A stretch of DNA of 64,000 nucleotides from Azolla caroliniana (taxonomy: Eukaryota > Plantae > Polypodiophyta). The notes under the pieces are model-generated. The model was not told where the DNA came from and made no database searches. It saw only the letters and a list, made by a program, of their open reading frames with translations. The stretch is taken from assembly GCA_043228905.1 (NCBI GenBank), contig JBHGNT010000018.1:16120001-16184000 (forward strand), given 5' to 3'. The translations under genes and the position numbers were made by a program. Of this stretch, positions 3,098-45,403 are shown in pieces (position 1 is the stretch's first letter; each line of letters begins with the position of its first letter).

Positions 3098-3900
3098 TGT
3101 CGTAGTGTAGGTTGCACACTATGTGGAAATTATATTTTTGTCCCTCCGGATAAAGAATGGAGTGCTCGGTGAGAACCGGAAGAAAACGGCATACCAGCAA
3201 GGAGGAAAACGGCATACCGGCAAGGAAGAAAACGGCATACCGGCAAGGAAGAGCCGGATAAAGAGACATAAATGTAAAAGGAAAGGAAATACTCACTACT
3301 GCGCAGGGCGTGATTCAAACTCTGCACCTCCACGTTGACAAACCCCAACCTTACCATTACATTAACTTATCTTAAGTGTTTTAAATATAGATTTAATACG
3401 TATAAGACCTTTATTATGCATACCTTTATTAAAAGGTAAATCGTGTATTTTTTTAATATATGAAAAAGAAAAACACGAGACACTAAAAATAACTCATGCA
3501 CATCTAGCGTGCATGAGCCCTATACTTAGGAAATAAAAAAGCATCACATGCACATTTAGTGGACATGCACATTTTGTAAAAAAAAAGCATGAAGCCATGC
3601 TTAGCTCTTCCTCCCTTATATAAGGAGGAGAGAAATATGTAAAGGGTTGTTGATTATTTGGATTAAGTATTAATCAATACAAAAATTATTCGTGGGATTC
3701 ACGATTTATACATCTACTTCTCTCTTAACACCCTAAGTACCAATTAATATAGTATACTCGTGTGATTCACGAGTTTCTTATCTTTCTCTTTGCTATTTAC
3801 TCATAATTAATCTCTATCTCACGAACTTCTTTCTCCTAGTCCAAGACCTCTGTGGTTCCCACCCGACTCACGCAACGATCCGGAGCCGAAAGGCACGACA
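3098..3900 (+). repeat. G1 5' LTR
   Basis: TGTCG...CGACA. Three copies of a 23-bp repeat GGAAGAAAACGGCATACCGGCAA (about 3178-3250). TATATAA near 3617. Confidence 0.97.
3301..3368 (-). promoter_or_regulatory. tRNA-like Pol III A/B-box module in G1 LTR (second copy about 9482-9549)
   Basis: Minus strand reads TAATGTAATGGTAAG...TGGAGGTGCAGAGTTTGAATCACG. The other LTR has GTTCAAATC, implying an ancestral B box GTTCGAATC. Confidence 0.6.
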
Positions 3901-3904
3901 CAGT

Positions 3905-3922
3905 TGGTGAACCCGACGTGAA
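3905..3922 (+). promoter_or_regulatory. G1 primer-binding site, tRNA-Trp
   Basis: TGGTGAACCCGACGTGAA is complementary to the plant tRNA-Trp 3' end (TTCACGTCGGGTTCACCA, as I recall it). Confidence 0.88.
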
Positions 3923-3938
3923 CACGGGTGGCAAGGAG

Positions 3939-5978
3939 ATGGAGGCTCAACAAGCTAACAATATGATGGCGATGTTCGAACGGATGCTTCAAGAACAACG
4001 CACGATGTCGGAGATTTCGGCATCAGTAGAGCGGCTCGTGCAACGCAACGGGCAATTTAATGGTAAGGATGTGTCGCGATATTTGCAGGACTACAAGGCG
4101 GAGATGCTCCGGTGCCGGGCTTCGGAAGGACTGCAAGTGACATCCTTTAACCGGGTGGCGACCGACGGGCTTCAAGGGAGTATCCACGGGTTGCAACAAC
4201 AAAATCCGACGTGGGAAGCATTCGAAGAGGCGTTAAAGACCACGTTTGCCATCGAGGACTCCTCCAAGGCAACGCGGAGGGGATTCGAGGATTGGGTGGA
4301 AACGTCAGGTAAGGGGCTGAAGGTCCTCGAAGTGTTTTCGACATTCGAAAGTCGGTTCGGGAGGTTGTCCGCGAGAGATCAAACTATTCTTGCACCGGAC
4401 AAAGTCATCATGTTTTTGCGAGCTGTGGACGTCCGGGACCGGAAAGATCTCGGAGTGCTTCTTGAGGACACGACCACCGAAAGCGGCCTCACCGAAACAT
4501 GGGAAAGCGTGCGGGATATCGTCGCGCGGTACACGAAGAGGGGGCAATGGCTTGCCAACGAAGAAAAGAGGGTTTCGGAACCGATTCCGAAACCGAGAAC
4601 GGGACTGGAAGACCATCAACCGAGGGCTCGGGAGATTACGGCCGAGAAGGGAGTCGACGCGTCTACGGTGGAGCAGCTGCTGAAGGAGATGGAGAATCTA
4701 AAGATCGCGATGGTGAAGAAGTCGGATGACCGCCCCACAAGCTCCAAATATACGGATCGACGGTGCATATGGTGCGATAGCGCCGAACACGATCGGAGGG
4801 ATTGCGACGACCATAAGGAGGCGCTACGACGGGATCTCATCTACTACGAGGGAAACCGGATTCATTCGATGGACTCTCGGAAGCCACTCCGACCGAACTT
4901 CCGGAAAGGCGGCATGAAGAAGGTGCTCGAGGAGGAGTTAGCGGCAAGAAGCAACTATGCGACAACCGCGAGAATATGTGTCGGGGAGTCATCGGGAGCG
5001 AAGGCATCTTTCTGGCCGGAGGTGCTAGGAAACACCGAGAAAACCGACTCCAACGATATCCGAAACACCGCGGAAGGCGTCCGGGAAGCTACGGGATGGG
5101 AGTGCCCTGTCGACAAGAATAGCATATACGCTCTGTGTCAATTACATGAGGTGTATGTGGACGAGAAACGACGGCGCACGGAGGATGCGGCCGGACCATC
5201 GAAGATACCGGAAAGCTGGAACTCCGGAGGTAAGGGAAAAGAAAAGGCGACTCCGGCATTCAAGCTCGCCTCGGACATAGAACAACAAACCGACTTGAAA
5301 AGAGTGTTCGAGGAAAGAATCTTGGATAGCCGGGTAGATTTTTCGCTGCGGGAACTACTCGGAATAGCGAAGAAGGAGTTTCACGATCTTCTCGTGGATC
5401 TCGTGAAAAGGAAGAGACAAAGTACGGAGGAAAATGCTCCAAGGGTGAATGCAAATACCGTTTCAATGAACGACACCGAAGTGGAAGGCGAAATTCCGAA
5501 CTCCCACTATACAAGGCCACACTGGGCACGTGCGACTACGGAGACTCCGGTCCGAATCGGCAACATCAAAGAACCCGTGCTAGCATTGATTGATCACGGA
5601 TCGGAGATCAACTTGATGTCCAAGGAGTTCTACCGAAAGGGGAAGTGGCCTATAAACACCAACCATGGATGGAAGATTCGGGCAGCCACGAAAACGACAG
5701 AAGACCTATTTGCGGCTTGTCCGGATGTGACGGTAAAGATCGGGGATGTCGAAATTGACCAAAATTTCTTTGTGCAGGATGAGGTTTCACATTCTATCAT
5801 CCTCGGCCAACCCTTTATCACGGCTTCACGGATGGAGACGAAGGTGCTCGATAGTGGTGCGGCTTTTGCGCGAATTCGGAGCCAAAACGGAGGGAAATCC
5901 GTCCAATTCCTAACGGTGCCGGCAAATCACGAAAGGAACAAGAGGGAACTCTTGTCCCAAGTGAGAATGGATTTTTAA
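3939..5978 (+). CDS. gag: G1 ORF1: Gag plus aspartic protease
   Basis: Open 679-codon frame with CIWCDSAEHDRRDC zinc knuckle and LIDHGSEINLM protease. Homologous to G6 ORF1. Confidence 0.92.
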   Translation: MEAQQANNMMAMFERMLQEQRTMSEISASVERLVQRNGQFNGKDVSRYLQDYKAEMLRCRASEGLQVTSFNRVATDGLQGSIHGLQQQNPTWEAFEEALKTTFAIEDSSKATRRGFEDWVETSGKGLKVLEVFSTFESRFGRLSARDQTILAPDKVIMFLRAVDVRDRKDLGVLLEDTTTESGLTETWESVRDIVARYTKRGQWLANEEKRVSEPIPKPRTGLEDHQPRAREITAEKGVDASTVEQLLKEMENLKIAMVKKSDDRPTSSKYTDRRCIWCDSAEHDRRDCDDHKEALRRDLIYYEGNRIHSMDSRKPLRPNFRKGGMKKVLEEELAARSNYATTARICVGESSGAKASFWPEVLGNTEKTDSNDIRNTAEGVREATGWECPVDKNSIYALCQLHEVYVDEKRRRTEDAAGPSKIPESWNSGGKGKEKATPAFKLASDIEQQTDLKRVFEERILDSRVDFSLRELLGIAKKEFHDLLVDLVKRKRQSTEENAPRVNANTVSMNDTEVEGEIPNSHYTRPHWARATTETPVRIGNIKEPVLALIDHGSEINLMSKEFYRKGKWPINTNHGWKIRAATKTTEDLFAACPDVTVKIGDVEIDQNFFVQDEVSHSIILGQPFITASRMETKVLDSGAAFARIRSQNGGKSVQFLTVPANHERNKRELLSQVRMDF

Positions 5979-8900
5979 AGCGGACTGTTGCGGAGTGGGG
6001 AAGTGATAGTCCGAGAAGCCCTGATACCCCACACAGGAAGAAAACTCTCGGAGCAAAACAAGTACGAATCGGCCCGGATGGGGCATCTACGTACACGGCC
6101 GTAACCGGAGGAATGAAGAAACAATACCGACAAGTGGAGGATAAGTTACGGTCGGCATCAATAATAAAAGAAGACGAAGAAATCGTGGGAGTGATCGAGG
6201 AGGTGTTCTATGGGAATACACTACAACGGCTTGAAGAGCTTGCGGAAGATAAAAGCCAAGGGAACCGGGTAGTCCCGGTGGAATCGGTCGAGATGTACGA
6301 GATCGTTGCGAAAATGGGGCCGGATGCGCTCCGCAAAGAAGAAGCAATGGTAAGTACGAAATACAAGACCGTGGAGAAGAAGGTGAAACCGGCCGCGGGA
6401 CCACTACCCGCCGATAGCGAACAAAAGAAGAAAGAAGTCTCGGGAGATCCGACACTTCGGAAGTCCGTGGATATCGGACATGCCTTCACAGATGAGACCC
6501 GGAAGAAACTTCGGATCGGTGGAGGTGGGTTCCTCTTACAAGAAGAAGAAAAACGGTTTCGAGAGATGTTGGAGCAACATGGCAAAGCATTCGCGTTCAC
6601 ATCGAGGGAGATCGGATGCATTGATCCAAAGATAGTGGAGCCGATGGTGATTTTCACGATTGATCATGTACCGTGGAACCTGAAGCCGATTCCGGTGCCA
6701 CGGGCGCATATTCCGAAAGGCATCGACTTGCTCAAGGAGAAGGTGGCGATGGGGATTCTAGAGCCATCAAGTGCTCCGTACTCAAATCGATGGTTTACGG
6801 TTCCGAAGAAGAATGGGTCACTCCGATTCATCCAAGACTTGCAACCGGTGAACAAGGTCACGATCCGGAACTCGGGAGTCGGTCCGATAGTGGACGAATT
6901 CGCGGAAGCTTTTGCCGGACGTGCGATATACTCCATCGGGGATCTATACTCGGGGTATGACCAATTCCAACTAGCCGTGGAGAGCCGAGACATCACTACC
7001 ATGCGGACACCGATAGGACTAGTTCGAATGTGCACACTACCACAAGGAGCGACAAACTCGGTTGCACATATGTTGAACGCGATGAACAAGGTGCTTCGAG
7101 ATTGCATCCCGGAGATAACGATGCCGTTTCTAGATGACATTCCGATGAAAGGATGCGCGGTGGAAGAAAAAGATGAGACTATGGATGATCGGGGATGCCG
7201 AAAGTTCGTGGTCGACCATATTCATGATTGCGAGAAAGTGTTGCGAAAGCTAGAAGATGTGCACCTAACACTTTCCGGGGAGAAATCGGCATTCGGGCAA
7301 GAAGAAATATTGGTGGTCGGACATCTATGTGGACCCTACGGCCGAAGACCGGTATCGGGTGGGTCATCAATCAAGCCGACTCGGATGGTTCACGGTATCC
7401 GATCCGATTTGGAGCAAAGGTCCTCAACGAAAGGCAACGCGGATATGCACAAGTCAAAAGAGAATTGTGGGGAGTCGTGTCGGCGATAAAATCGGATCGG
7501 GATTATTTGATCGGAGCTGAAGTGGTGATCGAGACGGATTGTCTTCCGATACTCGGGATGATGCGGTGTTGTACGATACCGGATGTGGCTATGCTAAGGT
7601 GGATTGCATATGTCAAGTCACTTAATCCGGAGGTTCGACACATCTCGGGGAAGGACAACGCGGTAGCGGACATGTTATCGAGGGCGCGGTTTGAAGACGA
7701 CATAACCGAATCAGATAATGAAGAAGTTTCCGAAGACTACTTCACGTCAGAACACATATGCCGAGTGAACGTGATCCGAGAATTCCGGGAAGAAGAATAC
7801 GAGGGGGAAACCTTGATGATCGGGAAGATGCTACAAGAGGTCGAGGATTCAACCAATGATAAAGAAAGGAGAGCCGAGATCCGAAGGAAGAAGAGGCAAG
7901 TCCAAAAGTTCTTCTTGGAAAACGGTTTAATATGGAGGACGCCGAAAAGACCGGATGGGATACCACTTCGAGTAGTCGGGACGAAAGAGCAACGAAACCG
8001 GATAATATCCGAGTTCCACGAATCCGATTGGGCTGGACATCGAGGAACATGGGCAACTTTTGTGAAAATCAAGCAAAGATATTGGTGGAAGAACATGTAT
8101 AAAGATGTCGCGGAGTTCACAGAAAGCTGCGAGAAATGTCAAGTCTACTCCGGGGTCTGACACCGAGATGAGCTGCATCCGACATTCTCACCGACAATCA
8201 ACTTCAAGTGGATGGTCGACATTGTAGCTATGCCGACCGGGATTGGACAAAAGAAATACTTGGTGTTAGCTCGAGAAGATCTCACAAACCAAGTTGAAGG
8301 TCGAGCGCTTCGGAGGAAAACGTGTGCCGCGGTGTGCCAATTTCTTTTGGAAGAAGTGTTTTGTAGGTACGGCTGCGTAGGACAAGTGATTGCGGACCGG
8401 GGAGAACTCGACTCAGACAAAGCTAGGGGATTCTTCGCCAAACATGGAGTTCGGTTAACGTTGACAACGGCCTACAATCCGGAGGCCAACGGGAAGATCG
8501 AACGAGGACATAGTCCGATCGTGAAAGCACTTGCGAAGGCATGCGACGGAAGGGTGAAGGATTGGCCACAAATGCTTCCGTATGCACTATGGGCGGATCG
8601 GACGACGCATAGCTCCGTGACCGGTTACATGCCGGCAGAACTCATGACCGGACAAGCACCGGTAATGCCAACGGAAACCGCAATCGCGACATGGACAATA
8701 CTACCGTGGAAGGAAGAGATGAGCCGGGAAGAACTACTAGCGGTCCGGATACGACAACTGGAGGGAAGACCGAAAGATGTAGCGGAAGCGTCACGCCGAC
8801 AACAAGAAGCACGGTTCCGGAACAAAAGCCGGTTCGACACAAAGCACCGACTACGACCGAGGAGGATTGAAGAAGGAGATTGGGTGATCGTCTATGATAG

Positions 8901-9291
8901 TAGCTTGGACCATCAACATACAACGATGCGGAAATTCGCGAAAAGGTGGTTCGGGCCGTACGAGGTTCGGAAGGTCTTCGACAACGGGACGTACCGACTG
9001 TCCGAGTTTGATGGAACAAAACTACGAGTACCTATAGCCGGGAAGCGGGTGAAGATTTTCAAGAAGCGGACCGACGACAAACCTTATGTGATCCAAGTCG
9101 AGGCCGACAACGAGGAGCAATCGGACGAAGACCACAATGATGCGGGAAGCGAAGAAAGTGGATTGCAACTCATAGTTGACATAAGGGGAGAATCGGAGGA
9201 AGCTTCGGATGAAGACGGATACGAAGAATCAAGAACTTCGGCACATACCGGAGGATGTGCGGGTTTGGAGGGGGCGAGTGTCGTAGTGTAG
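5975..9291 (+). pseudogene. pol: G1 pol (RT-RNase H-integrase), in the -1 frame relative to ORF1
   Basis: LPQGATNS and FLDD RT motifs, integrase HHCC and core, GPY/F. About 97 codons deleted near 7350 with a frameshift. Premature TGA at 8158-8160. Confidence 0.92.
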
Positions 9292-10081
9292 GTTGCACAC
9301 TATGTGGAAATTATATTTTTGTCCCTCCGGATAAAGAATGGAGTGCTCGGTGAGAACCGGAAGAAAACGGCATACCGGCAAGGAGGAAAACGACATACCG
9401 GCAAGGAAGAAAACGGCATACCGGCAAGGAAGAGCCGGATAAAGAGACATAAATGTAAAAGGAAAGGAAATACTCACTATTGCGCAGGGCGTGATTTGAA
9501 CTCTGCACCTCCACGTTGACAAACCCCAACCTTACCATTACATTAACTTATCTTAAGTGTTTTAAATATAGATTTAATACGTATAAGACCTTTATTATGC
9601 ATACCTTTATTAAAAGGTAAATCGTGTATTTTTTTAATATATGAAAAAGAAAAACACGAGACACTAAAAATAACTCATGCACATCTAGCGTGCATGAGCC
9701 CTATACTTAGGAAATAAAAAAGCATCACATGCACATTTAGTGGACATGCACATTTTGTAAAAAAAAAGCATGAAGCCATGCTTAGCTCTTCCTCCCTTAT
9801 ATAAGGAGGAGAGAAATATGTAAAGGGTTGTTGATTATTTGGATTAAGTATTAATCAATACAAAAATTATTCGTGGGATTCACGATTTATACATCTACTT
9901 CTCTCTTAACACCCTAAGTACCAATTAATATAGTATACTCGTGTGATTCACGAGTTTCTTATCTTTCTCTTTGCTATTTACTCATAATTAATCTCTATCT
10001 CACGAACTTCTTTCTCCTAGTCCAAGACCTCTGTGGTTCCCACCCGACTCACGCAACGATCCGGAGCCGAAAGGCACGACA
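9279..10081 (+). repeat. G1 3' LTR
   Basis: Direct repeat of 3098-3900, preceded by PPT GGAGGGGGCGAG. Confidence 0.97.
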
Positions 10082-10085
10082 ACGC

Positions 10086-10622
10086 GCAGAAACACGACAT
10101 TCACTACGATGAGACGTTTGCGCCGGTTGCAAAGATGACGACCGTCTGTGTTTTGCTCGCGGTCGTTGCGGCAAAAGGGTGGCACTTACATCAGATGGAT
10201 GTAAAGAATGCATTCCTCCAAGGTGAGCTTGAGGAACAGGTGTACATAGTACAACCCCCCAGATTTCACTCCGGACTGAACACCTTGGCGGTGTGCCGAT
10301 TGAAGAAGTCCCTTTATGGACTAATGCAAGCCCCGTGTGCTTGGAACGCGAAGATCACACAACAACTGTTTCGGATGGGCTTTGCGACGTCGAAATCAGA
10401 CTCTTCACTGTTCATCCGGAAAGGTCGACTCGGGCCGGTTAGTATTCTACTTTATGTTGATGACTTGGTCATCACCGGCGCCGACCTAAGTGAAATCAAC
10501 TGCGTGAAGCTCTAGCTTGCGACATCATTCAACATGAAGGATTTGGGGGCTCTTCATTACTTCCTTGGGATCAAAGTGATCTGCACCCTTGAAGGCATAC
10601 TGATCAGCCAACGACATTACGT
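10086..10622 (+). pseudogene. pol: CopB RT continuation
   Basis: Resumes GYA|QKH..YDETFAPVAKM, QMDVKNAFL, LYVDD. Cut by E2 at QRHYV. Confidence 0.92.
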
Positions 10623-10684
10623 TGTCGCGTTGTTACGCGCGTGCACGTAAAAGGGGGCGGGACCACGGGGGTCTTGGACCGAGG

Positions 10685-10688
<4 letters not shown>

Positions 10689-10727
<39 letters not shown>
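10689..10727. repeat. (GA)n microsatellite inside E2 LTR
   Basis: About 19 GA units. Confidence 0.95.
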
Positions 10728-10729
<2 letters not shown>

Positions 10730-13700
10730 CACAGACACACAGAAGCGAGAAGGAGAGATATAGAACGGAACACTTGATTACAATAACAAGAGATTACAAA
10801 CTCCGACATGGGGTCCTACTCACGCACACCGACGATAGCCACACGACTCGAAGAAACAAAAGGGGAAAAAGGGGAGAGAGAGACTCTGCCGGAAGCACAC
10901 GGGCTATCCACGAAGCAGAGGCAGCGAACTCCCGACACCTGCAGAGAACGACGATCGGAGGAGAGAGAACTCGGCACACCGTTTTGCAGCAGCCCTTCGT
11001 CCTCGCCAACGCCCGATATCTTCTCTCCCCTCTCTCTTTTCCTTAAATAGTTCCCATCCCTAGGCAAATCGCCTTATTCCCTGTCCCTTCTAACAGAGAT
11101 ACGCACAATCCCCTAATAAATGTGTACTACTTAGTATTTACATCAGCTGATCCATTTATGAATCATGTACAAAAATCAAAATATCAAAATATCAATTCAC
11201 GCGTTCATCCATGTAAGAGCCGGTTCATGCGCCCTTTTCTCCAATTCTGCCTATGGCCGGTTTTCTTCACGACATCCACCCCCACCAAACCGCGCATCCA
11301 CTGACATGCGCTAGAGATGGGGAGTTACCAAAGAAAACCGGCTTCACTTGTCGCTCTCCGATTCTCTGTCGGGCCCGAACTGATCGTCGTTGTCGCTCCC
11401 GCTCGCAGGCTCCGGCTCGTCTTCGAACCGCTTCTTGAACGCTTTGATCCACTTCCCAGCCATTGACACCGTTAACCGTGTCCCGTAGAGTTCCGCGAGG
11501 TGGTACGTGCCGTTGTCTTTCGCGCTCGTCACCGTGTAGGGCCTGAACCACCTCCTGGCAAACTTTCGCACCGCCTTGTGCTGATTGTCGAGGCTGCTGT
11601 CGTATACCAAGAGCCAGTCGCCTTCCTCGATCTTCTTTGGTCGCAACCGGTGCGTCCGGTTGAACCGAGTCTTGCTCCGCTCCCTTGTCGCTCGCAACTT
11701 TTCCTTCACCCGTTTCACGTCCTCTGGCCTTCGCTCGAGTTGCCGAATCGGCGCCGCCAGCAACTCCTCCCGGCTCATCTCGTCCTTCCAACCTACCACT
11801 GCTCATGAAGAAACCGTTCGTTCCACCGGCATGATCGACTTCTATTTGTACATCAGCTTTGCCAGCATAAACCATGTCACTGAACTGTGCGTAGTTCAGT
11901 TCGTCCATAGTGCGTAATGAAGGAGCCGCGGCCAATTCCCGACCTGCCCTCCGCATGCACGCACCAACGCCTTTACGATCGGCCCGTGCCCACGTTCTAC
12001 CTTTCCGTTCGCCTCCGGATTGTATGCCGTAGTGAAGGAGAGTTTGACGCCTAGCCGGTCGAACAACTCCTCAGCTTCCCGCGCATCCAGCTCTCCCCGG
12101 TTCGCCACGATTTTCCCGACGCACCGGTACCGACACACTACCTCTTCGATCAGGAACCGGCATACCGCCGCAGTTGTCTTGTTCTGCAGTGCACGACCTT
12201 CCACCTGGTTCGTTGAGTCTTCCCGTGCAAGGACCAGGTATCGCATTTGTCCTACTCCCATTGGCATCGTCACCAAGTCCACCATCCACTTGAAATGGAC
12301 TGTAGGCGGGTAGGTCGGGTGTAGCTCGTCCCGGTGTTAGATTATGGAGGGCATCTGGCAGCTTTCGCAAGTCGTTACGAACCAATGCACATCTTGGTAC
12401 AACCCCGGCCACCAGTACTTCTCCTTCAGCTTCTCGAACATGGCCCACGTTCCGCGGTGCCCGACCCAGGGATTCTCGTGAAATGCCGCCAGTAGTTCCT
12501 CCTGTTCTCCTTTCTTTGTCACTACTCGGAGCGGGATGCCGTTTCTCTTCTTTGGGTGCCTCCATATGCACTTGTCCCACAGGAAGAATCGGTACGCCTT
12601 CTTCCGTACCCGGCTTGCCTCTTCTCTTGTCCATGCTGCGTCCAGCGTCATCGTCCGTAGGAACCTCCCGATTTGGAGCCACTCCCCGTCGTACCTGCTT
12701 TTGTCAAATTCGTTAAGCGTCGGAGTGTCCCTTTCCCTTGTCACTACGTTAGCCGACCCGAAGAAGTCCTCGCCGACTTCTTCGTCATCCGAAACCATGC
12801 CGTCTTCGTCGTTGAACCTTGCTCTCGAAAGCATGTCGGCCATGGCGTTATCCTTTCCGGAGATGTGTCGTATCTCCGGGTTCAGGGACTTAATGTACGC
12901 TATCCACCGGAGCATTGCTAGGTCCGGCGTCACGCATCCGGAAACCATCCTGAGTATCGGCAGGCAGTCCGTCTCGATGATCCCCTTCGTCCCGATCAGA
13001 TAGTCCTTGTCGGCCTTGACTGCCAAAACGATACCCCAAAGCTCGCGCTTAACTTGGGCGTATCCTCGTTGCCGTTCGCTCAATACCTTCGTCCCGAACC
13101 GGATCGGGAACCGTATGCCGTCCTTGTCCTCCTGACTGATTACCCACCTGATCCCGGTCGGGCTCGTGTCCACCGTCACGCAAATGGGGACATCCTTGCC
13201 GTAAACCGCTTTTCGGAGAGCCGGTGCTACCGTAAGCGCCTCCTTTAGTCTCCGTACCGACTCTGTGTGCTCCGTCCTCCACTCAAAGCTACGTCCCCTT
13301 TTCAATAGTATGTAGAGGGGTTCCACGACATGTGCGTAGTGCGGGATCCAGATGTGGTAGAACGCTGTCGTGAAGATTTCCGGCTATAGTGTGAAACCGG
13401 GGTGGAATGGGCAAATCGGTGGAGTGCAACATGTGCACGTGTATACTAGGAAATGGTGTGTAGAAAGAAGAGGGGAATTTTATCCCACATTGTAAGGTCC
13501 CCCCTTCCTTGGGCTATAAAAGGAAGGGCGGGGTCACTTATGAGCGGTTGCCTATTTTGAGGGAGAGAGGCATACCACTTAGGTCGAGGGTTTCCTATTC
13601 GGTTTTAGGGTTTCGGTTAGGGTTTTCTTCTTGAGTTTTCTTTTAGGGTTTTCTTATAGTCGTTTGGTGTGGCCATGGCGGCCACCATTGTTGTAATCAT

Positions 13701-13935
13701 TCGCTTGTTTTTAATATAGCTTGTTGTGGATCTTGATTCCATCTATTTTGGTCTACGCTTATGTCCTACTCTTCATCTTCTCATCCAGTGTTAAGCTTCC
13801 ATTTCTCATATCTTATTCTTCTCCTCTACTCCCTAGTCCAAGACCCCCGTGGTCCCGCCCCTTCTACACGCACGTGCGTAACAACGCGACATATTTGGTG
13901 AACCCGACGTGAAGAGGCGGCAAGGGAGGACGGAG

Positions 13936-16022
13936 ATGGAAGAAGACTTCGACTTCGAGGAGATGATGGCAAAGATCGTAATGGATGCGCGAAGGAAAAA
14001 GGCGAGGCGAGATGCGGCTCAACAAGCCGTCGAGAGGGTGGTCTATCGAGTCGACCGATTCAACGGGGACGATGTCCCGAGGTTCTTGGAATCGTACGAT
14101 GCCAAGATGACGGAGTGGGGCGTGGATGAAGCGATGTGGCTAGAGTATTTTCGTCGAGTGGCGGCCGTATCGATGCATAAAGAGGTCAAGGAGCTTCAAG
14201 AAGCTCACGAGTCGTGGGAGTCCTTCAAGGAGCTTTAATGGAGGCATACGAATACGCGAAACCAAAGTGGGTATGCCGGCAATATGATGGGGAGCGGTCG
14301 GCAACGACTTGGCCCGCGAGGGACGGAAAAGAGAGGGTGGTGGGCGGCTACACACCACCGCCGGAAAAGAGCTTGATGCGCGATCAACCGGAGGAGTACG
14401 ACTTCGAGGTGTTGGTATGGGAGGCGTGCGAGAGCGTGAAGGTAAAGTTCGAAGCCGAGGAAGGGCTTATTATGGAGTTGGGCCCAAGCGGATCGAAGGA
14501 TGCCGAGGAAGAAGCCTCCCTACGCGTGGAGGACGGGGCCTATGCTGAGGCCGAAAGAGCGTGCGACGGCGACATGGGAGAAGGTGCTGAGCAAGCGACC
14601 CTCTTGTCTTGTGGTGAAGGGATGACCATGGAGGCCGGTAACTACGGATTCGGGACATGGCGGCCCAAAACATCGAGTGAGGAGGAGACAAGCGGCGGTG
14701 CCACGACCTTACACACACCGGTCCTAGAGACTCCGGCATCCGGCCCGAGAGCCGGTGTGGGACCTAGAGTGACGGATGGTGGCGGCGGCAAAGCGGGCAA
14801 CCGAGACGACGACATGGAAGAGACGGTGGCAAGCGTAATTGAGGCTCGTGCAATTGGAGGCGGGGTAGCAGTGGATAACGACATCTGGATGGAGGCGGCT
14901 ACGGACACAACGAGCGGCGGTGTCGGGTCCTTACCCACACCGGTCCTAGAGGCTCCGGCGGCCAGCCCGAGTGCCGCCATGAGACCTAGAGCGACGGGCG
15001 GTGGCGGCAGCAAGGCGGGCAACCACGACGGCGAGAACAACGAGGAAGAGGTGGTGGCAAGCGTAAACGGAGATGGGGTAGCCACGGACGACGATGACCG
15101 AATGGAGGTGGCTACGAACGAAACGAGTGGCGGTGCCAGGTCCTTACCCACACCAGTCCTAGAGGCACCGACGGTCGGCCTGAGTGCCAACGTGAGACCT
15201 AGAGCGACAAGTGGTGGCGGCGACAAGGAGGGCAACCAAGACAACGGAAAGGAAAGCAAGGAAGAAGGGGCCGCAAGCATAATCGAGGCTTGCGGAATCG
15301 GAGATGGGGGAGCCGCGGACAACGACATCCGGACGGAGGCGGCTACAGCAACGACGAGCGGAGGTGCCGGGACCTTACTCACACCAGCCCTAGAGGCTCT
15401 GGCGGTCGGCCTGAGAGCCCATGTGAGACCTAGAGCGACGGGCGGTGGCGGCGGCAAAGCGGACAATCGAAACAACGACGAGGAAGGTCATAGCGGACGG
15501 AGGAGAGACCCCTCGACACCGAAACCAGAGACTACGGCGGTTGTGCTCGAATGCCAACATAAGACCGGAGAGAAGGATGGTGGCCATGAGGAGGCATGGC
15601 CGGGAGCGGACACGTGCGAAGATGAGGATGTGAGGCCCAGAACGGGCATATACAAGAGGACCGACGGAGAGGTCGGGAGCGGCAAGGAGGAGAGAGTCGG
15701 AAACCGACCCGACCGGAAGATGAACCGGTCGATAATCCGACATGACCGGAAGACGAGGCGGAAGAAGATTGGAGTGGGGTCTGGTCAACCGGGCCCGAAC
15801 CGAAGAGATGGCGGCAGTTGCGGATCAACAGAAGACGAAAGAGACGGCGGGTGGTGGCGAGGACTCGGAGACCGGAACGGACGAGGCTACCGGAACGGGT
15901 ACCCGGTGCGTGAAGACGGTCGAGCACGGCCCAGATGGCGAGCCGGAGTCGGAAGGGGCTACAACAACAAAGGACGAAGAGACCGACGCGAAGGTTGGGA
16001 CTACGGCGGGAGAAGCGTGTAA
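13936..16022 (+). pseudogene. E3 Gag N-terminal domain joined by a 1-nt frameshift near 14232 to a repeat-rich acidic ORF
   Basis: AVERVV...FNGDDVPRFLESY...W aligns with the G1 and G6 Gag N-termini. Continues as ALMEAYEY in ORF 14214-16022, which has four LPTPVLEAP repeats. Confidence 0.7.
14685..15480 (+). repeat. E3 tandem repeat array 1 (4 units; periods 222, 213, 231 bp)
   Basis: Anchor CCTAGAG at 14723, 14945, 15158 and 15389. Confidence 0.92.
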
Positions 16023-16099
16023 CACGAAGCATGCATTACGACGTAGAACGGAGCGTGCACGACGGCCGGCGAAGGGCCAAGAAGCAAGGATGCACCTGG

Positions 16100-17365
16100 A
16101 AGAGCGGCAACGAGTGACCGGCAACGGTGGACCAGTCGAGCCTTTGAGAGGCAAGCACGCGGCAAGAGACGGAGTGGTGAGTTGCCGGGATCGGCGGATG
16201 AACGACAAGGGCGGAGGATGATGCGTGGAGAGCAAAGAACTACGCGCCAGGGAGAGAAAAAGCGGCGTCCCGGAGGACGTGCGGGGCCAAGCGGGCCAAG
16301 AGGATGCGAGTCGGGATGAAGCGGTAACGAGGGCCGTGAAGAACCCCGATATGAAGGTCGAGATGACGATACGCTCTACTACAAGAGAGCACGGAGAGCA
16401 AGGGAGAATCGAGGTGCGCGTAATGGGGTCACCTAAGGACCAAAGAATGAGCGTGCATTCGGAGGAGCCGCAACGAGTGACCGCCGATGACGGTCGGAGG
16501 AAGCCTTCGAGAGGCAAGCGTGGGACAACAGACGGTGCGACGAGACGCCAAGATTGACGGAACAAGACGGGCGGGATTGGCATGAACGAAGGGGATGCGC
16601 GGAGAACAACGGGGTACACACCGGGAAGAGAAAGCGCGGCGGCTTCCCGGAGGGCATACAAGGCCAAGCGGGCCAAGAGTGCGCAAGTCGAGGCGAGGCG
16701 GTAACGAGAGCCTTGAGGGACACCGACACGGAGGTCGGGATGACGGTACGCTCTACGACGAGAGAGCACGACGGGCAAAGGAGAGGGAAGGAACGCGGAA
16801 TGGGGTCGCCTAAGGGCCAAAGAATGAGCGCATATTCGGGGTACAACATCGGCGCACGAGAAGAGCCTATGGAAGGCAAGCGCGGAGCAGGAAGAGTCGA
16901 CACGCTGAGGTGTTCGGCATGCGGAGACGATAAAACCAAAGGAGGAACATACGCGGCACGAAAGGGGCGGAATCCGGAGTGCGATCAGAGAGTTCGGGAG
17001 CGCACCCAGAGGACATATGAGCCTTTGCAAGGAATGCACGCGGCGAGAGACGGAGCGGTGAGGTGCCAGTATCGACGGATGATCTGCAAACATGGAAGGC
17101 TATGTCTTGAGAACCGGAGGAGGTGCGTGGAGAGCAACGGGCTACGCGCCGGGAAGAGGAAGCGCGGCGTCCGGGAAGGCATGCAAGGCCAAGCGGGCCA
17201 AGAGGATGACAGTTGGGATGAAGTGGTGACGGGAGTCGTGAAGGACATTGACATGGTGGTCGGGATGACAGTACACTCTACGGCGAGAGGGCTCGACGAG
17301 CGAGGGAGAAGCAAGGAGCGTGTAACGGGGTCACGTAAGGACCAAAGCACGAGCGCGCATTGGAT
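16100..17365 (+). repeat. E3 repeat array 2 (3 units; periods 377 and 525 bp)
   Basis: Anchor GGCCAAGCGGGCCAAGA at 16285, 16662 and 17187. Peptide unit GQAGQE...MTVRSTTRE...GSPKDQ. Confidence 0.88.
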
Positions 17366-20300
17366 GGACGACAACGACGCACAGAAAGTGCATACCGAAG
17401 CCGAGCGCAGAACGAAGGGAGTCAGTACGAGGTGTTCGGGGCAAGGAGAAGGTCGAGCCGGAGGTGGAACACACGTGATACGCGAGGAGCGGCACTCGGC
17501 GAGCAATCGAAGTAATCGGGGGTCTAACCGGAGGACATGCGTGGTGAGCGAAGGAAGGGAGACCAGATCGGCAACGGTGTTCGGGATGGCCGGTCGAAGA
17601 AGAAGGTGTGTGCACCGGACATGGTGGATCGGATGGAGCCGGCGGGTCGGGGCCGGTAAGGAGCCGGCAAGGGACCGGCAAGACGGTTGGGTGCCGGTAA
17701 GGCGAAAGACCCGGTTGATCACCGTCGCCGAAATCTTTCACCCTTTTCCTTTCTTGGCACATACCGGTGGATCTGCGGTTTGGTGGGGGTGGATGTCGTG
17801 AAGATTTCCGGCTATAGTGTGAAACCGGGGTGGAATGGGCAAATTGGTGGAGTGCAACATGTGCACGTGTATACTAGGAAATGGTGTGTAGAAAGAAAAG
17901 GGGAATTTTATCCCACATTGTAAGGTCCCCCCTTCCTTGGGCTATAAAAGGAAGGGGGGGGTCACTTATGAGCGGTTGCCTATTTTGAGGGAGAGAGGCA
18001 TACCACCTAGGTCGAGGGTTTCCTATTCGGATTTAGGGTTTCAGTTAGGGTTTTCTTCTTGAGTTTTCTTTTAGGGTTTTCTTATAGTCGTTTGGTGTGG
18101 CCATGGCGGCCACCATTGTTGTAATCATTCCCTTGTTTTTAATATAACTTGTTGTGGATCTTGCTTCCATCTATTTTGGTCTATGCTTATGTGCTACTCT
18201 TTATCTTCTCATCCGGTGTTAAGCTTCCATTTCTCATATCTTATTCTTCTCCTCTACTCCCTAGTCCAAGACCCCTGTGGTCCTGCCCCTTCTACACACA
18301 CGCGCGTAACAACGCGACAACGCGCATGCACCCAAGAATCCGCGGACCTCCGTAACTGACCCGCAATCGTTCCTCATCGCGGAGATGGCCTCTACCTTTG
18401 CCGGAGTGGTTTCCTACCGTAAGGCCCGCACAGGTGTCCGACCACCAGGATCTCCGACTGCCTGAACGCTGATTTTTCTCTAGAGAAGGTGAGTCGTGCT
18501 TTTTCGAGCCTCTGTAGCACCTTCTCGCAGTCGTTGATGTGGTTCACGATGAACCTCCGGCATCCGTCTATCCCGACAGTCTCGTCCGCATCTTCCACCG
18601 GACACCCCTTTATCGGGATGTCGTCCAAAAATGGCATGGTGATATCCGGGATGCAGTCCCTTAGCACCTTGTTCATTGCATTCACCATATGCGCCACCGA
18701 ATTTGTCCCTCCTTGTTGTAGGGTACACATTCGTACCAAGCCGAGAGGAGTTCGCATCGTCGTGATATCCCTGCTCTCCACGGCTAGCTGGAACTGGTTG
18801 TACCCCGAGTATAAGTCACCGACCGAATAGATCGATCTTCCAGCGAAGGCCTCCGCGAACTCGTCTATGGTCGGTCCGATTCCTGCATTACGGATGGTCA
18901 CCCTATTGACCGGTTGCAGGTCCTGAATGAAGCGTAGCGTGCCATTCTTCTTTGGCACCGTAAACCACCGATTCGAATATGGGGCACTGGACGGTTCGAG
19001 GATGCCCATCTCCACCTTCTGCTTCAGAAGCTCCATCAACTTCGGGATGTGAGCTCTCGGCACCGGAATCGGTTTGAGATTCAATGGTACATGCGGTACC
19101 GTGAAGATCACCATCGGTTAGACAATCGTCGGGTCCACACACCCGATCTCCTCCGGCAAGAACACGAAGGCTTTCCCATGCCTTCCGAGCATTCTCCGAA
19201 ACTTGTCCTCCTCCGCCGGCAGTAGGAAGCCACCCCCACCGACCTTGAGCTCCTGTAGCGTTATTGTAAAAAGTAGCGTGCGGAAGCAAGTATGAAGACC
19301 GAACAGAAGGAAGAAGACTCAGGTTTAATGGAGAGCTTGAGCTTACGCAATGTACGCGGGAGAGACAGAGAGGGTGAGAGAGAGAGAAGACACAAACTAT
19401 ATTCAACAACAAAAACTCGCAATCTCTATTCACCACACTCTATACATATGTGTGTTCAATGAACACTTTTATACAAGTCCTAGAAGGACTGATAGTACTT
19501 CAATGCTCATTAAGAGCTCCTACACTAACTCCCAAATATATTCCTCACGGAATATCTTCCCTAACGGCCTCCCGGTTTACTCATTCGGCCTAACCGATCG
19601 GTCCCAACCGATCCGCTCCTCGGCTTCTTCAGCCGATCCGGCCGATGTTGAGCTTGTCTCTCAACACTCCCCCTCAAGCTCAACTTGAGGCTCTTCGGGA
19701 TCTTCGGGCTCACAGCTCCGGTTCCTCCTAGCTTCACGCCTCGCTCGCGCTCCTCGACCTGTTCAACTCCGCGCGCTTCGACCCTTCCGGTCGGCTTGTC
19801 TGCTCATGTGGCCCTTATCAGCTCTTCTGCTATTGCGGTGTTGATGCTTCTTCTGCTGCCTTTTCTTCCGCTCTGGCCTCAGTTGATTCAGCGTATTTGA
19901 ATCAAACATCGGAACCGACTCGGCTACCTCCGATCGGTTTTCACTCTCGTCCGAGTTGGCTGTCTCCAACTCGTCTTCGGTCTTCTCGCCCTCGATGGCG
20001 TCATCTTCCCCATGCGTGGTTGGTTTCGGCTCTCTCCTTCAGTTGCTCCCCTTCTGTCTGCTTCTGGACTTTTCCACGGGTCTGCCCTCGACTTCTTCAG
20101 CCGATCCGAAGTCGAACTCGACAACCGACTCGGTGTCGCGGTCTCTGCTCCTTTCCTGTTGCCTTGCTTGGTCGTTCGGGACTGTTCTCCCCCTCAAGTT
20201 TGGCATGTCGAGGTGACGCAATCCGAGCGCACCGGAGAAATGCCGCAACTTGTCTAGACCAAGAGGCTTAGTGAAGATGTCGGCAGTCTGCCGATCCGTC

Positions 20301-20581: not shown

Positions 20582-21230
20582 TGTCGAGGTATTCCTCGCG
20601 GATGCGTGGAATGAGGCGGGACCTCGGGGGTCTTGCACCGAAAAGCAAGAGAGAAAGGTGAAGGGGAGGGACCCACTACGTGCGAGCGTAGATTCACAGG
20701 GACACGGCCCTTTGACACAAAGACGCGAGTGGGACACCGACACAGAGAGACACGAATGTATGTATATATATATTAACAAAGACAAACAACAAGAAGCACG
20801 AAGTCGGTTACAACTGAACAGGCCGGCGAACAGATGCGGATGCCTGTTCGTAAACGCACAGAAAGAAAGGAGTAGGTTGGAGGTGCTGCCGGAAGCACCC
20901 GGGCATTCCTCAGAGCAGCGCGAGCCTCCCGAAACCTGCACAGAAAGAAGCTACGGAGTTTTGGAAGAGAGAGAAGCCTTCGGCCGACAACCCGACAACA
21001 CTTCGTCCTCTCTATCGTTGATCCCCCCTTTTCTCCTCCTGTTCTTCGTCCTTTTTATAGGCAAGAAACGAGCCATTTCCCATTAACTTCCTCCCTACCG
21101 AATCTACCTACCTAGGATCTTCTATGTACCTAATTCTCTCTTATGTACAACATAAGGTGTATGTGCATGAAGAGCCGGTTCCTACGCTCCGGTGCACTGA
21201 TTCCGCTTGTGGACGGTTTTCTTCACGACA
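20582..21230 (-). mobile_element. Solo LTR (Trp group) in CopC RNase H
   Basis: TGTCG...CGACA, TSD ACGC at 20578-20581 and 21231-21234. U3 end resembles E2 and G5. Confidence 0.92.
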
Positions 21231-21234
21231 ACGC

Positions 21235-23660
21235 GATCGCGGCACTCCCAAGGGAGAACGCGTATCCGGACGTGGATCGGCGGCGTTGCCAGCCCAATCA
21301 GCATCGATGTAGCCGACTAACTGCGCGGCTGCACCGGTCCGATATAGTAGTCCGCGGTCCTTAGTGCCGTTGACATACCGAAGTATGCATTGCGCACATT
21401 GAAGGTGCTCCTCGGTAGGTCGCGCCATGAACTGACTGATCACTTCGACCGGATAACTAAGGTCGGGTCGGGTGATGGTCAAGTATATGAGGCTTCCGAC
21501 AACTTGTCGGAACCTCGTCGAGTCGCATACCTTTCCCGTATCGGGACGAAGCTTGACGGTTCTGTCCAGAGGAGTCGAGACGGACTTACAGTCGGCCATC
21601 CCGAATTTGAAGAGCATACTCAACACGTAATGACGTTGGCTGATCAATATGCCTTCGGGGGTACGGATCACTTCGATCCCGAGGAAGTAATGAAGGTCCC
21701 CTAGATCCTTCATGGTAAACAATGCCGCAAGCTGGAGCTTTACGCGGTTGATTTCACCTAGGTCGGCGCCGGTGATGACCAAGTCATCAACATATAGTAA
21801 AATACTAACCGGTCCGAGTCGACCTTTCCGAATGAACAGGGAAGAGTCCGATTTTGACGCGACGAAGCCCATCTGACGCAGTTGTTGCGTGATCTTCGCG
21901 TTCCAGGCACGCGGGGCTTGCTTTAGTCCGTAAAGGGACTTCTTCAGTCGGCATACTGCCGAGGAGTTCGTTCCGGAGTGAAATCCGGGGGGTTGTACCA
22001 TGTACACCTGTTCCTCAAGGTCACCTTGCAGGAACGCATTCTTTACATCCATCTGATGTAAGTGCCACCCCTTCACCGCAGCTACTGCGAGCAAAACACG
22101 GATGGTCGTCATTTTTGCGACCGGCGCAAACGTCTCATCGTAGTCGATGCCATGTTTCTGCGCGTAGCCCTTTGCCACTAGCCGAGCCTTGTACCGGTTG
22201 ACCGAGCCATCAGTGTTGTACTTGACCTTGTACACCCACCTACACTCGATCCGCTTCACACCCTTTGGTGCGTCAACCAGGTCCCAGGTCTCGTTCTCCA
22301 CCAACGCGTGCATCTCTTCCTCCATCGCGACACGCCAATTCGCATCTTTAGCTGCTTCTGCGTAGCTCTCCGGCTCACGCACTTCCGCTACAAGGGTCAT
22401 GTACGCATAATGATGTGCCATGTACTCGTTGTATCCGAACCGCAAAACAGGATTCTTCTGGCGGGTAGACCGGCGTAATCTCACATTAGCCGATGTCGAG
22501 GCCTTCTCGGTCGACGCGGTCTTCACCTTTAAAGACCCGTCACCGGTTCCCTCGGAGTCGGACTCGTGTCGGTCTAACTCGTTCCTATCCGTGCCAGAAT
22601 CCGACACCTTCCTTTTCCCTTTCTCTTTGCGCGTAAGCCGTCTCCTCGGCTTCCTGTGCGGGGAATGCACGGCCGAGTCTCCACTACTCGCCGGCTCTTC
22701 ATCGGGCTGGTCGTACCGACTCAGTCGTCCAATCGGTCCACTTAAACGGAGTGAAATCGGACTCTCTTCGCGGGTCTCGATTTCGGGCTCTTTCGGAGGC
22801 ATCTCGGCCTCGCTGACCTCATCGTTAGAACTCGGATTGGAGTTGGGATTCGGAATCAGGGGCAGGTACCAGGACGCGGACTCGTCAAACACAATGTCGC
22901 GGCTGACACGCGCTTGTTTGGTGCGAGGGTTATAGCACTTATAACCCTTCTGCTCTTCCGAGTAACCGACCAAGATGCATTTCTCGGCCTTGGCGTCCAG
23001 CTTCCTCCGTTTCTCCTTCGGTACATGCACATACGCAATGCTACCGAACACCCTCAAGTGTCGCAAGTTCAGCTTCGTTCCGAAATATAGCTCGTGTGCC
23101 GACACTTTGTCTCCGATCCGGTTCTGGATGTATACCGCGGTCCTTACCGCCTCGGCCCAGTAGAACTTGGGCAAGCTCTTCTCCTCCAGCATTGCTCGTG
23201 CCGCTTCCACAACTGACCGATTCTTCCTCTTGGCCACGCCGTTCTGCTCCGGCGTGTATCTACAACTGAATTCGCGCTGAATTCCCATTTTTTGTAGGTA
23301 ACCGTTGAATTGACTAGAAAAATACTCTTTCCCACCATTCGACCACAGGCACTTGATCTTTCGTCCCGTTTCCATTTCCACAAACACTTTGAGGTCCTGG
23401 AAACAGACGAAGACTTCGTTCTTCCTCTCAATGAGGTAGATCCACGTGTGCCGCGTGTGGTCGTCGATGAAGGAGACGAAATATCGGCTCCCGCCAAAAC
23501 TAACGTTTTGTGCCGGCCCCCATACATCGGAGTGTATAAGGTCCAGCTTGTTCCAGCTCCGGTTTCGCTCGTTGGGGAAGGGAAGTCGGTGTTGCTTCCC
23601 GAGATGGAAGGCTTCACAAATTTGTGCCTTTCGGCCACTAAATTTGGGCAATCCGAACAC
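21235..23660 (-). pseudogene. pol: CopC integrase-RT segment
   Basis: HSDVWGP, TPEQNG, QMDVKNAFL and LYVDD in one frame. Flanked by frameshifts. Confidence 0.92.
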
Positions 23661-24660
23661 TACCTATTTTGTTTGCAGATCTTGAAGCCGCTGGTAGTTG
23701 ACGTCGCCTATCCGCTTGTGCCACAAGTCGATGTCCGACTCGGATTTTTGTCCCTTCACGAACATTGTGGGGCCACCGTCAGTGGAGTCGAGGATGAACA
23801 TCCTCCCGTCTTTGCGCCCTTGTGTAATCACACGGCCTTCTTCCTCAATGAAGCACCTGAGGTGTGTAAACCGAACCTCCATCCCTTGGTCGACGATCTG
23901 TCCGACCGAGACCAAGCTCTTCATGATTGTCGGAACGTGCAACACATTCATGAGTTTCCCTTTCTGCCCGACATGGCTAAGGGGAACTTCTCCAACATTC
24001 GCGATCGGATGCGGAGTGTCGTCTCCAGTTGCGACTACTCCAGATTGTATCGGTTTTCAAGGTATGAGAACCACTCCTTATGGCTCGTCATGTGGTTTGA
24101 CACGCTGGAGTCCACGTACCACACCTCGTCTGATCTCGGGGTGGTCCGTTTCATTGAGTTTGCTTTGTGTCTCGTCACGAAGACAGACCCTTCTCCGGCT
24201 CTCCCGAAGTCTTCAACGTAGTGCGATCGCTGCCGATTTCCCTTGTCAGTATGTCCGGAGCCGTTTCCGGAACTGGTTCTCTCCGAATCGGCGCACTTCT
24301 TCCAACACTCACTTTCCCTGTGGCCTTTCTTGCCACAGTACCAGCACTCCGCGATGGCCTTCCCTTGCCGGGTGTCATCGCTTCGACTCCCCCTGTTTCC
24401 GGAGGGTCCGGAGTTGCTGTCTTCCTTGATCTCATCGGCCACCTCCATTGCGCGCCGACTCGCCTCGTCCTCCACTTCCACGGGGCCTATCTCCCTCCGT
24501 GTACAACATTCTGTTGTCGGTGTGCGTGCTTGTGGACGCACCCGCGTGGTTCTCCTCTACCAGGAGCATCGACTGTAAGTCGAAAAAGGACGGCATATTC
24601 TCCCGGGTACACACAGCCGTTCGGAACGCTCCGAACTTCGACGCCAAACCTCCGAGACAG

Positions 24661-44700: not shown

Positions 44701-44770
44701 CTACCATGGCTTAATGGTAAGCCAATTGACTCCTAACTTGGAGGTGCAAGGTTTGAATCCTTACTTGCCC
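44701..44770 (+). promoter_or_regulatory. tRNA-like Pol III A/B-box module in G6 LTR (second copy 51515-51584)
   Basis: A box TGGCTTAATGG with D-stem GCTT/AAGC, loop CTCCTAA, T-arm AAGG-TTTGAAT-CCTT. Confidence 0.68.
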
Positions 44771-45403
44771 TCCTTGTATATGTAAATATGTATATATATT
44801 TATATATTTATTTATGACGCCGGTTCGCCGGATGCCGGTGCCTCCGTCGGTTATCGGTGCTGTCGTCGGTTACCGGTGCCTCGCCGGATGCCGTCGGATC
44901 ACCGTCGCCAGATTGCCGTCGGATCATTGGCTCCATCGTCGGTCCGGTTTTGGTTGGCCAAAACCCTTTACGAGTAGCTAGCCCACCTCCACTCTTAGTT
45001 CAAGTTACCTTGAACTCTCTATGCTCCACACATAGACACAAAGATAATATCTTTTGCTCCACCTTATATATGATGAGAACTGTATTTGTCGTGCCTATGT
45101 GGGATATCTCACAATTTTCTCCTTTCCTTTTACAAACTTTATACCCTCATATCTTGACATTTAGTTGTCCGTTTCTCGTGTAATAAAGTGCATTCGAAAC
45201 CTCCATCATTTTGTACTTAGATATTAAATCTATTTAAAATGTTATCTTCACAATTATTGTACTACGTGATTCATACTCGATTTCGTACGTTTTATAGGAT
45301 TTTCACACTATTGTCGAAAATCTTCACGACATCCACCCCCACCAAACCGCACGTCCTCCGGTACGTGCCAAGAAGAGAAGAAGTGAGATTTCGGCTACGA
45401 TGA

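What the first reader, a model, noticed from the sequence alone, without database searches (positions are those of the whole stretch)
13366..18319. Pol-less element encoding a Gag N-terminal domain fused to long repeat arrays
Seen: E3 keeps all cis signals (LTRs, Trp PBS, pre-PPT hairpin, PPT, perfect TSD). Its 3.9-kb interior has only about 100 aa of Gag N-terminus, with no zinc knuckle, PR, RT, RH or INT. Four acidic Gly/Ala-rich repeats follow, with periods 222, 213 and 231 bp, all multiples of 3. Three further repeats come next, two carrying NLS-like KRKR. The sense ORF pieces (13936-14238, 14214-16022, 15742-16557, 16554-17801) could join through about three 1-nt shifts and one stop into a frame of about 1290 codons ending in the 3' LTR. 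Inference: a mobile non-autonomous element that may make a capsid-domain-tagged disordered protein able to co-assemble with, hijack or poison helper particles. Caveat: the strand is T-poor, so stop codons are naturally rare.
Basis: partly seen in the sequence, partly recalled or inferred. Interest (0 to 1): 0.72.

Follow-up and report, generated by a model that had tools for sequence, protein, structure and literature searches.

The report
Pol-less retrotransposon with capsid-tagged filler protein
This is a decayed copy of an abundant retrotransposon, likely from a non-seed plant, that has no copying enzymes; its relatives keep one stop-free frame of 600-1,400 codons, made of a whole or half capsid domain plus a freely drifting, predicted-disordered repeat tail, likely because the RNA must be translated end to end to hitch-hike in another element's particles.

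Summary
The element is real: 526-bp LTRs (96.8% identical), a 4-bp NCGN target duplication, Trp primer site, covarying pre-PPT hairpin and no Pol. These marks fit the Phygy gypsy lineage. Four public runs hold thousands of variant contigs. This copy is broken (three frameshifts, two stops), but both stops are absent from most other copies, and about two are expected from its age. Natural relatives carry one open frame from the primer site to the PPT (1,419, 1,188, 1,116 and 893 aa). The N-terminus folds as an Arc/Ty3 two-lobed capsid. This copy keeps only the N-lobe; sister subfamilies keep both lobes or only the C-lobe, always in frame. The capsid is under purifying selection (dN/dS 0.4-0.5). 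The repeats drift at dN/dS about 1, yet avoid stops and frame-breaking indels far beyond T-poor nulls. Selection therefore keeps the frame open rather than the tail's sequence. Best reading: a TR-GAG-like parasite whose end-to-end translation works in cis, as in mouse IAP 1-delta-1, to dock its RNA onto helper particles. The main rival is escape from nonsense-mediated decay. Expression and binding are untested. New variant of a known kind.

The parts
13362..13365 (.). left target-site duplication, 4 bp (ACGC, NCGN type)
13366..13891 (+). 5' LTR, 526 bp, TG...CA, TATA-like motif at 13515
13896..13913 (+). primer-binding site, shared with the two gag-pol elements of the window; the tRNA-Trp label is recalled, not matched to a tRNA sequence here
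13936..14264 (+). start codon, leading helix and capsid N-lobe (Arc/Ty3 fold); frame break near 14226; C-lobe (about 84 codons in relatives) absent after 14264
14265..14686 (+). post-capsid linker with one predicted helix, weakly homologous to the Gag stretch before the zinc knuckle of autonomous elements
14687..15486 (+). four acidic Gly/Ala/Thr repeats starting 14687, 14909, 15122 and 15353; in frame; dN/dS about 1
15487..16221 (+). spacer with a frame break near 15805 and an in-frame stop at 16219-16221 that most other copies do not share
16222..17368 (+). three mixed-charge repeats (cores 16222-16466, 16599-16843, 17124-17368), KRKR in the second and third; stop at 16555-16557 and frame break near 16585
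17369..17801 (+). basic Arg/Trp-rich end with one WxIGW motif (17622); the frame stops 8 bases inside the 3' LTR
17757..17776 (+). 6-bp hairpin before the PPT, covarying among six elements
17782..17793 (+). polypurine tract
17794..18319 (+). 3' LTR
18320..18323 (.). right target-site duplication (ACGC)

Best explanation
This is a dead copy of a multi-copy, Pol-less LTR retrotransposon, likely of the Phygy gypsy lineage, whose relatives keep one open frame from primer site to PPT; that frame likely acts in cis, with the nascent capsid lobe predicted to dock on a helper element's Gag lattice while the long, predicted-disordered tail would keep the RNA on ribosomes and draw it into the helper particle. 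Shown: the cis signals are shared with two gag-pol neighbours; relatives have one open frame; the N-terminus has a capsid fold and is under purifying selection; the tail is neutral in sequence but avoids stops and frame-breaking indels; either capsid lobe can be lost in frame; this copy's disablements fit decay after insertion. Inferred: that the RNA is translated, that a single lobe binds helper Gag, that the basic Arg/Trp end stands in for the lost zinc knuckle, and that RT and integrase come from Phygy-like gag-pol elements such as those at 3098-10081 and 44341-52054.
For: L001 holds a whole interior with one 1,419-codon frame from just after the primer site to the PPT. Five distinct 1,419-aa variants differ from P0007 at 2-20 residues. 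Further uninterrupted proteins of 1,188 (2 variants), 1,116, 893, 673/690 and 618 aa (2 variants) have different repeat numbers. Window against L001: capsid N part dN/dS 0.39 (95% CI 0.2-0.7), the other 563 codons 1.11 (0.89-1.44); no stop in the homologous frame apart from one codon pair in the last block, against 29 and 18 stop-bearing pairs in the two other frames. Neutral simulations give 9-31 stops on average, and none of 12 x 200 runs was stop-free. Gaps among the repeats are multiples of three in 8 of 9 cases, against 0 of 7 in the LTR (p = 0.0014). The model of P0004 (pLDDT 88.6) has dArc1, Arc, Copia, MOAP1, PEG10, PNMA2 and Ty3 capsid structures in its top 14 rows. The deletions remove one lobe cleanly. 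In two N-lobe-only pairs the lobe is more conserved than the linker (75% against 50%, p = 0.0006; 71% against 50%, p = 0.005). Precedent: the IAP 1-delta-1 fusion protein acts in cis (PMC6466679, PMC7411935, passages).
Against: No full-length intact protein of the N-lobe-only type was found; P0001, P0002 and P0008 are short. Seven of 8 loci are partial or broken. Loss of either lobe is also what a dispensable protein would allow. Two pairs show no extra lobe conservation (P0002-P0008 70% against 67%; C-lobe-only pair 84% against 79%), and the trees do not resolve whether the C-lobe loss happened once, so capsid selection may predate the deletions. The Arg/Trp end shows no purifying signal between the window and L001 (dN/dS 2.7 on 28 codons), and the last codons are read in different frames in different subfamilies. 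The intact records are metagenome contigs that may be collapsed assemblies of many copies and may come from related samples. The dN/dS pools share L001 and include dead copies.
Confidence: 0.5

Rival explanations
1. The frame is kept open only to protect the RNA. A stop after the capsid would leave a 3' UTR of more than 3 kb and trigger nonsense-mediated decay or similar surveillance, so the protein is a by-product and the capsid conservation is left over from a TR-GAG ancestor.
For: Tail dN/dS about 1 with strict stop avoidance; either lobe can be lost; the stop always lies near the PPT but in varying frames; long 3' UTRs trigger NMD in reporter studies, including plants (PMC6173133, passages).
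Against: It does not explain why every surviving type keeps at least one complete lobe, nor the short N-lobe branch against the long linker branch of the window's own lineage. [quoted passage not shown]
Confidence: 0.3
2. The family is a semi-autonomous Gag donor in a cooperative complex: full-capsid members build or bulk out particles for Gag-less partners that supply RT and integrase, as proposed for Sabrina/WHAM with Wilma in wheat.
For: Full two-lobe capsids are kept in several subfamilies with dN/dS 0.45-0.53. The window holds elements with pol parts and no detectable Gag, and the LTR end is 91% identical over 57 nt to that of the host element. Precedent: PMC9744471, passages.
Against: No protease, zinc knuckle or Gag-Pol link. 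One-lobe versions, including this one, could not close a lattice by themselves (established capsid architecture). A tail of about 900 unstructured residues is hard to pack as the main shell protein.
Confidence: 0.1
3. The protein is a dominant-negative restriction factor like Ty1 p22/p18 that poisons helper particles and is kept for the host's benefit or to suppress competitors.
For: Single-lobe capsid fragments exist in this family; p22 is a truncated Gag inhibitor (PMC4599808, PMC8458377, search listing and start of abstract only); a Ty1 restriction-factor domain is among the fold matches (rank 11).
Against: The family has spread widely in several runs and depends on the helpers it would poison; individual copies decay like ordinary insertions rather than being kept as a host gene.
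Confidence: 0.07
4. The long frame is an artefact of a T-poor, G/A-rich repetitive strand, and the interior is non-coding filler as in a LARD.
For: T is 12.4% of the interior; repeat dN/dS is about 1; Neumann et al. discard extra ORFs in tandem repeats for this reason (PMC6317226, passage).
Against: The same strand has 54 and 36 stops in the other two frames against 2 in the homologous frame; composition-biased neutral evolution still gives 9-20 stops; indels keep phase in the repeats but not in the LTR; one frame is joined to a start codon and a selected capsid in subfamilies about 50-75% identical.
Confidence: 0.03

Closest known systems
TR-GAG elements (Chaparro et al. 2015, PMC4350172; abstract and parts 2-3 of 5 of the main section read)
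   Same: LTRs, primer site, PPT, many copies, one Gag-derived ORF, no PR, RT, RH or INT.
   Different: 4.95 kb against their 4-kb limit; TR-GAG1 has a 433-aa Gag with a zinc finger and no internal duplication, whereas this family lacks the knuckle, may lack one capsid lobe and adds 400-1,200 residues of in-frame repeats.
Phygy non-chromovirus Ty3/gypsy lineage (Neumann et al. 2019, PMC6317226; passages and supplementary file 3 read)
   Same: 4-bp NCGN target duplication and tRNA-Trp primer site; the gag-pol neighbours that share these signals show no chromodomain or archaeal RNase H in Pfam.
   Different: Phygy is defined on RT/RH/INT trees of autonomous elements of 7.7-10 kb with no extra ORF; this element has no Pol.
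Mouse IAP 1-delta-1 (PMC6466679 and PMC7411935, passages; the primary paper was not held)
   Same: Non-autonomous, internally deleted in frame, with one long Gag-fusion ORF that helps retrotransposition in cis while Gag and Pol come in trans.
   Different: A mammalian endogenous retrovirus whose fusion partner is Pol, not neutral repeats; the cis effect is shown there and only inferred here.
RLG_Sabrina_SA / RLG_WHAM semi-autonomous elements of wheat (PMC9744471, passages)
   Same: High-copy gypsy elements without RT or INT that share primer site and LTR termini with an autonomous partner.
   Different: They keep Gag plus protease, or short unrelated ORFs; no long repeat fusion or lobe deletions in the passages seen.
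Ty1 p22/p18 and Arc-type capsid proteins (listing; fold matches)
   Same: Truncated or knuckle-less capsid domains of LTR-retrotransposon origin.
   Different: p22 comes from an internal transcript of an autonomous element and inhibits it; Arc-type genes are domesticated single loci. This family is mobile and multi-copy.

Membership tests
TR-GAG | LTRs, primer-binding site, PPT and target duplication | tested here: met
TR-GAG | at least two copies | tested here: met
   2,550-14,654 contigs laid per run in 4 of 4 runs, with heterogeneous flanks at LTR ends
TR-GAG | Gag capsid similarity without PR, RT, RH or INT | tested here: met
   homology to neighbouring Gags and capsid fold; Pfam finds no Gag or Pol family in the pieces or relatives
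TR-GAG | one ORF | tested here: met
   met in L001 and intact relatives; this copy is broken
TR-GAG | length under 4 kb | tested here: not met
Filed as TR-GAG-like, not as a member
TR-GAG | transcribed | tested here: inconclusive
   no run on record as RNA was available
Phygy | 4-bp NCGN target duplication | tested here: met
   ACGC/ACGC against table row
Phygy | tRNA-Trp primer site | tested here: met
   18-nt site at 13896 shared with gag-pol neighbours; the Trp label is recalled
Phygy | no chromodomain and no archaeal RNase H (separates it from chromoviruses and TatI) | tested here: inconclusive
   none listed by Pfam for the two gag-pol neighbours; an unlisted family is not excluded
Phygy | RT/RH/INT clade membership against reference sequences | not testable with these tools
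   the element has no Pol, and no REXdb sequences were held
IAP 1-delta-1-type cis-acting fusion | translation of the ORF raises the element's own retrotransposition | not testable with these tools
   only indirect support from stop and frameshift avoidance
Ty1 p22-type restriction factor | trans-dominant inhibition of particle assembly | not testable with these tools
   needs experiments

The most novel reading that the evidence does not exclude
A family of LTR parasites that use either half of a retrotransposon capsid as an interchangeable docking tag on a nascent chain: the N-lobe, the C-lobe or both are fused to about 1,000 codons selected only for being translatable, so that the ribosome-tethered RNA is pulled into a helper's particle. 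It would be a natural deletion series showing that one capsid lobe plus continued translation is enough to steal packaging.
Probability: 0.3. Interest if true: 0.75.

Novelty: new variant of a known kind. Interest (0 to 1): 0.52.

Why it matters
How non-autonomous LTR elements get their RNA into helper particles is open for plants; TR-GAG function has not been shown in the papers I read. This family separates two pressures that are usually confounded: protein sequence (constrained only in the capsid part) and being translated (constrained over the whole interior). It also supplies natural N-lobe-only, C-lobe-only and full-capsid versions. That makes cis-packaging against RNA surveillance testable with population data and ribosome profiling. 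Such elements are invisible to Pfam-based TR-GAG searches, so they may be under-annotated in non-seed plant genomes. Four searches of the held library showed no description of this layout in their listings; the library lacks most subscription journals.

Tried and rejected
No whole genome is held for this window, so genomic copies could not be counted or dated. No RNA holder listed; run X14 is only guessed to be RNA and gave 8 low-depth contigs on 15550-16750, which is no evidence either way. A complex prediction of the N-lobe with a neighbour's capsid domain never ran because the queue was full. Pfam found no family for the pieces or for intact relatives, and a profile search of PDB sequences found nothing. 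Foldseek gave no match at E up to 0.001, although the top 6 rows were capsid proteins. Viral contigs held no relative. The pre-PPT and leader regions fold no better than shuffles in this copy (z 0.71 and -0.65); the hairpin rests on covariation in 6 sequences only. No tRNA gene lies in the window. The Arg/Trp tail has no match in the window's autonomous elements. Long hits P0071, P0093, P0099 and P0108 are unrelated repetitive proteins and were dropped. The ESM Atlas gave only generic Gag clusters at 0.90. Earlier-finding look-ups by sequence and by place were empty. The idea of a conserved NLS was rejected. The second gap count dropped nothing: the one 2-nt gap at a unit end is included in 8 of 9.
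Full report
Observation. The element spans 13366-18319. Its LTRs are 526 bp with 17 mismatches (K2P about 0.033). A perfect 4-bp duplication, ACGC, flanks it. It sits in the RT/RNase H junction of a minus-strand gypsy pol. The primer site at 13896 is shared with two gag-pol elements in the window (3098-10081 and 44341-52054), as are the PPT region and a 6-bp hairpin in which 2 of 6 pairs change on both sides across 6 elements. Pfam finds no Pol domain in the 5 sense pieces and no CCHC knuckle is present.

Lineage. In supplementary file 3 of Neumann et al. 2019 (PMC6317226), only Phygy and TatI combine a 4-bp duplication with a tRNA-Trp primer, and only Phygy has the NCGN preference. TatI carries an archaeal RNase H, which Pfam did not list for the neighbours. 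The host is likely a non-seed plant: Phygy was described from a moss and two distant Gag relatives are named in a fern. This is inference; no genome is held.

Copy number. In 4 of 4 runs, 2,550-14,654 contigs at 85-100% identity cover all 30 bins, and LTR ends run into heterogeneous flanks. Depth is not a copy number, but a single-copy origin is excluded.

Intact relatives. Of 8 metagenome loci, L001 holds a whole interior, and it has one frame of 1,419 codons from just after the primer site to the PPT; the other 7 are partial or broken. Protein searches gave 13 hits among 65 candidates, 6 among 7,994, 5 among 130 and 81 representatives. Among them are five 1,419-aa variants, P0028 (1,116 aa), P0120 and P0121 (1,188), P0110 (893), P0003 and P0021 (673, 690) and P0037 and P0114 (618). 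They differ widely in repeat number and stay in frame. Only P0016 has DNA in hand (L001). Several hits end early (P0005, P0006, P0109). These records may be collapsed assemblies and may come from related samples.

This copy is dead. Homology to the relatives changes frame near 14226, 15805 and 16585, and the homologous frame has 2 stops in 1,286 codons against 54 and 36 in the other frames. About 2.1 new stops are expected from the LTR divergence. At both stops most of the depth of other copies differs: 94-99% at 16221 and 88-99% at 16555 in 3 runs. P0001 (89% identical) reads through the first break, and P0111 and P0120 read through the later ones. The breaks are therefore not fixed in the family.

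The N-terminus is a capsid. It aligns with the window's autonomous Gags at 28-32% over 218-240 residues. The AlphaFold2 model of P0004 (pLDDT 88.6) matches dArc1 (Z 10.1, 159 aligned, rmsd 7.5), the Arc N-lobe (Z 9.0, 69 aligned, rmsd 1.8, model 33-107), the MOAP1 C-terminal domain (Z 8.0, 95 aligned, rmsd 2.8, model 114-215), Copia and Ty3 capsids. The Z values are middling for a helical protein, but the top 19 rows are all capsid-type and agree with the sequence evidence. Three architectures exist: both lobes (P0007, P0028, P0037, P0003 and others), N-lobe only (this copy, P0001, P0002, P0008) and C-lobe only (P0109, P0110; also P0120 by inspection). All continue in frame into the linker. 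A model of P0028 shows no secondary structure and pLDDT under 50 from residue 241 to 1,116 (shallow alignment of 20 rows), and 73-80% of the tail residues are disorder-promoting in 5 of 6 types.

Selection. My own Nei-Gojobori-type script gives dN/dS 0.39 (CI 0.2-0.7) for the capsid N part and 1.11 (0.89-1.44) for 563 downstream codons between the window and L001. L001 against all loci gives 0.53 for helix plus N-lobe, 0.45 for the C-lobe and 0.57 for the linker; repeats within this copy give 1.05 and 0.92. These pools are not independent. Capsid dN (0.15) is also below LTR divergence (0.25). Yet the neutral tail stays open: simulations from the L001 frame gave 9-31 stops on average and never zero, even with T-poor mutation bias, and gaps keep phase in 8 of 9 cases in the repeats against 0 of 7 in the LTR. 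KRKR is present in 3 of 6 full-length types; a WxIGW motif near the end is in 6 of 6, but it shows no purifying signal against L001, and the final codons are read in different frames.

Mechanism. Selection on openness without selection on sequence means that the act of translation, or mere continuity between the capsid and the basic end, helps the element spread. I favour a cis effect (0.5): the nascent lobe docks on helper Gag and brings its own RNA along, as the IAP 1-delta-1 fusion does (primary paper not held). Every surviving type keeps at least one whole lobe, and in the window's lineage the lobe changed little while the linker changed much. The rival is escape from nonsense-mediated decay (0.3; searches give mixed support). 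A Gag-donor role (0.1) and a p22-like poison (0.07) fit less well, and a composition artefact (0.03) is rejected. Translation, binding and packaging were not shown.

Comparison and novelty. It works like a TR-GAG and belongs to the broad class of non-autonomous LTR elements, whose boundaries are blurred (PMC13570524 and PMC9784723, passages). It fails the 4-kb limit and lacks the knuckle of TR-GAG1, so I file it as TR-GAG-like. I saw no description of the repeat fusion or the reciprocal lobe losses in the listings; supplements of the TR-GAG papers were not read. Two unchecked earlier notes describe Pol-less elements with odd ORFs in other genomes and are leads only. Verdict: real, new variant of a known kind, interest 0.52.

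Noticed in passing
window 3098-10081 (+) and 44341-52054 (-): Two young gag-pol gypsy elements (LTRs about 99% identical) with the same primer site and 4-bp duplications; candidate helpers.
   Followed up: partly
window 10623-19261 (-): The host element has RT, RNase H and integrase, but no Gag or protease hit upstream in tblastn with the neighbours' proteins; it is either Gag-less or truncated.
   Followed up: partly
window 42780-53440 (+): An element with LTR and primer site followed directly by part of RNase H and integrase, without Gag or RT, split by the 44341-52054 insertion.
   Followed up: partly
window 21141-23663, 37310-42779, 56614-60085: Copia elements; the one at 37310-42779 has LTRs 99.7% identical with a 28-bp tandem array inside them.
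   Followed up: no
window 61137-61691: A 112-bp tandem array of five copies.
   Followed up: no
window 15825-17099 (-): A 424-codon antisense open frame inside the element with no Pfam match; probably a by-product of composition.
   Followed up: partly
L002 725-1364 and L003 1279-2678: Relatives of this family are interrupted by LTR sequences like those of other Phygy-like elements in the window, so nesting among these families recurs.
   Followed up: no
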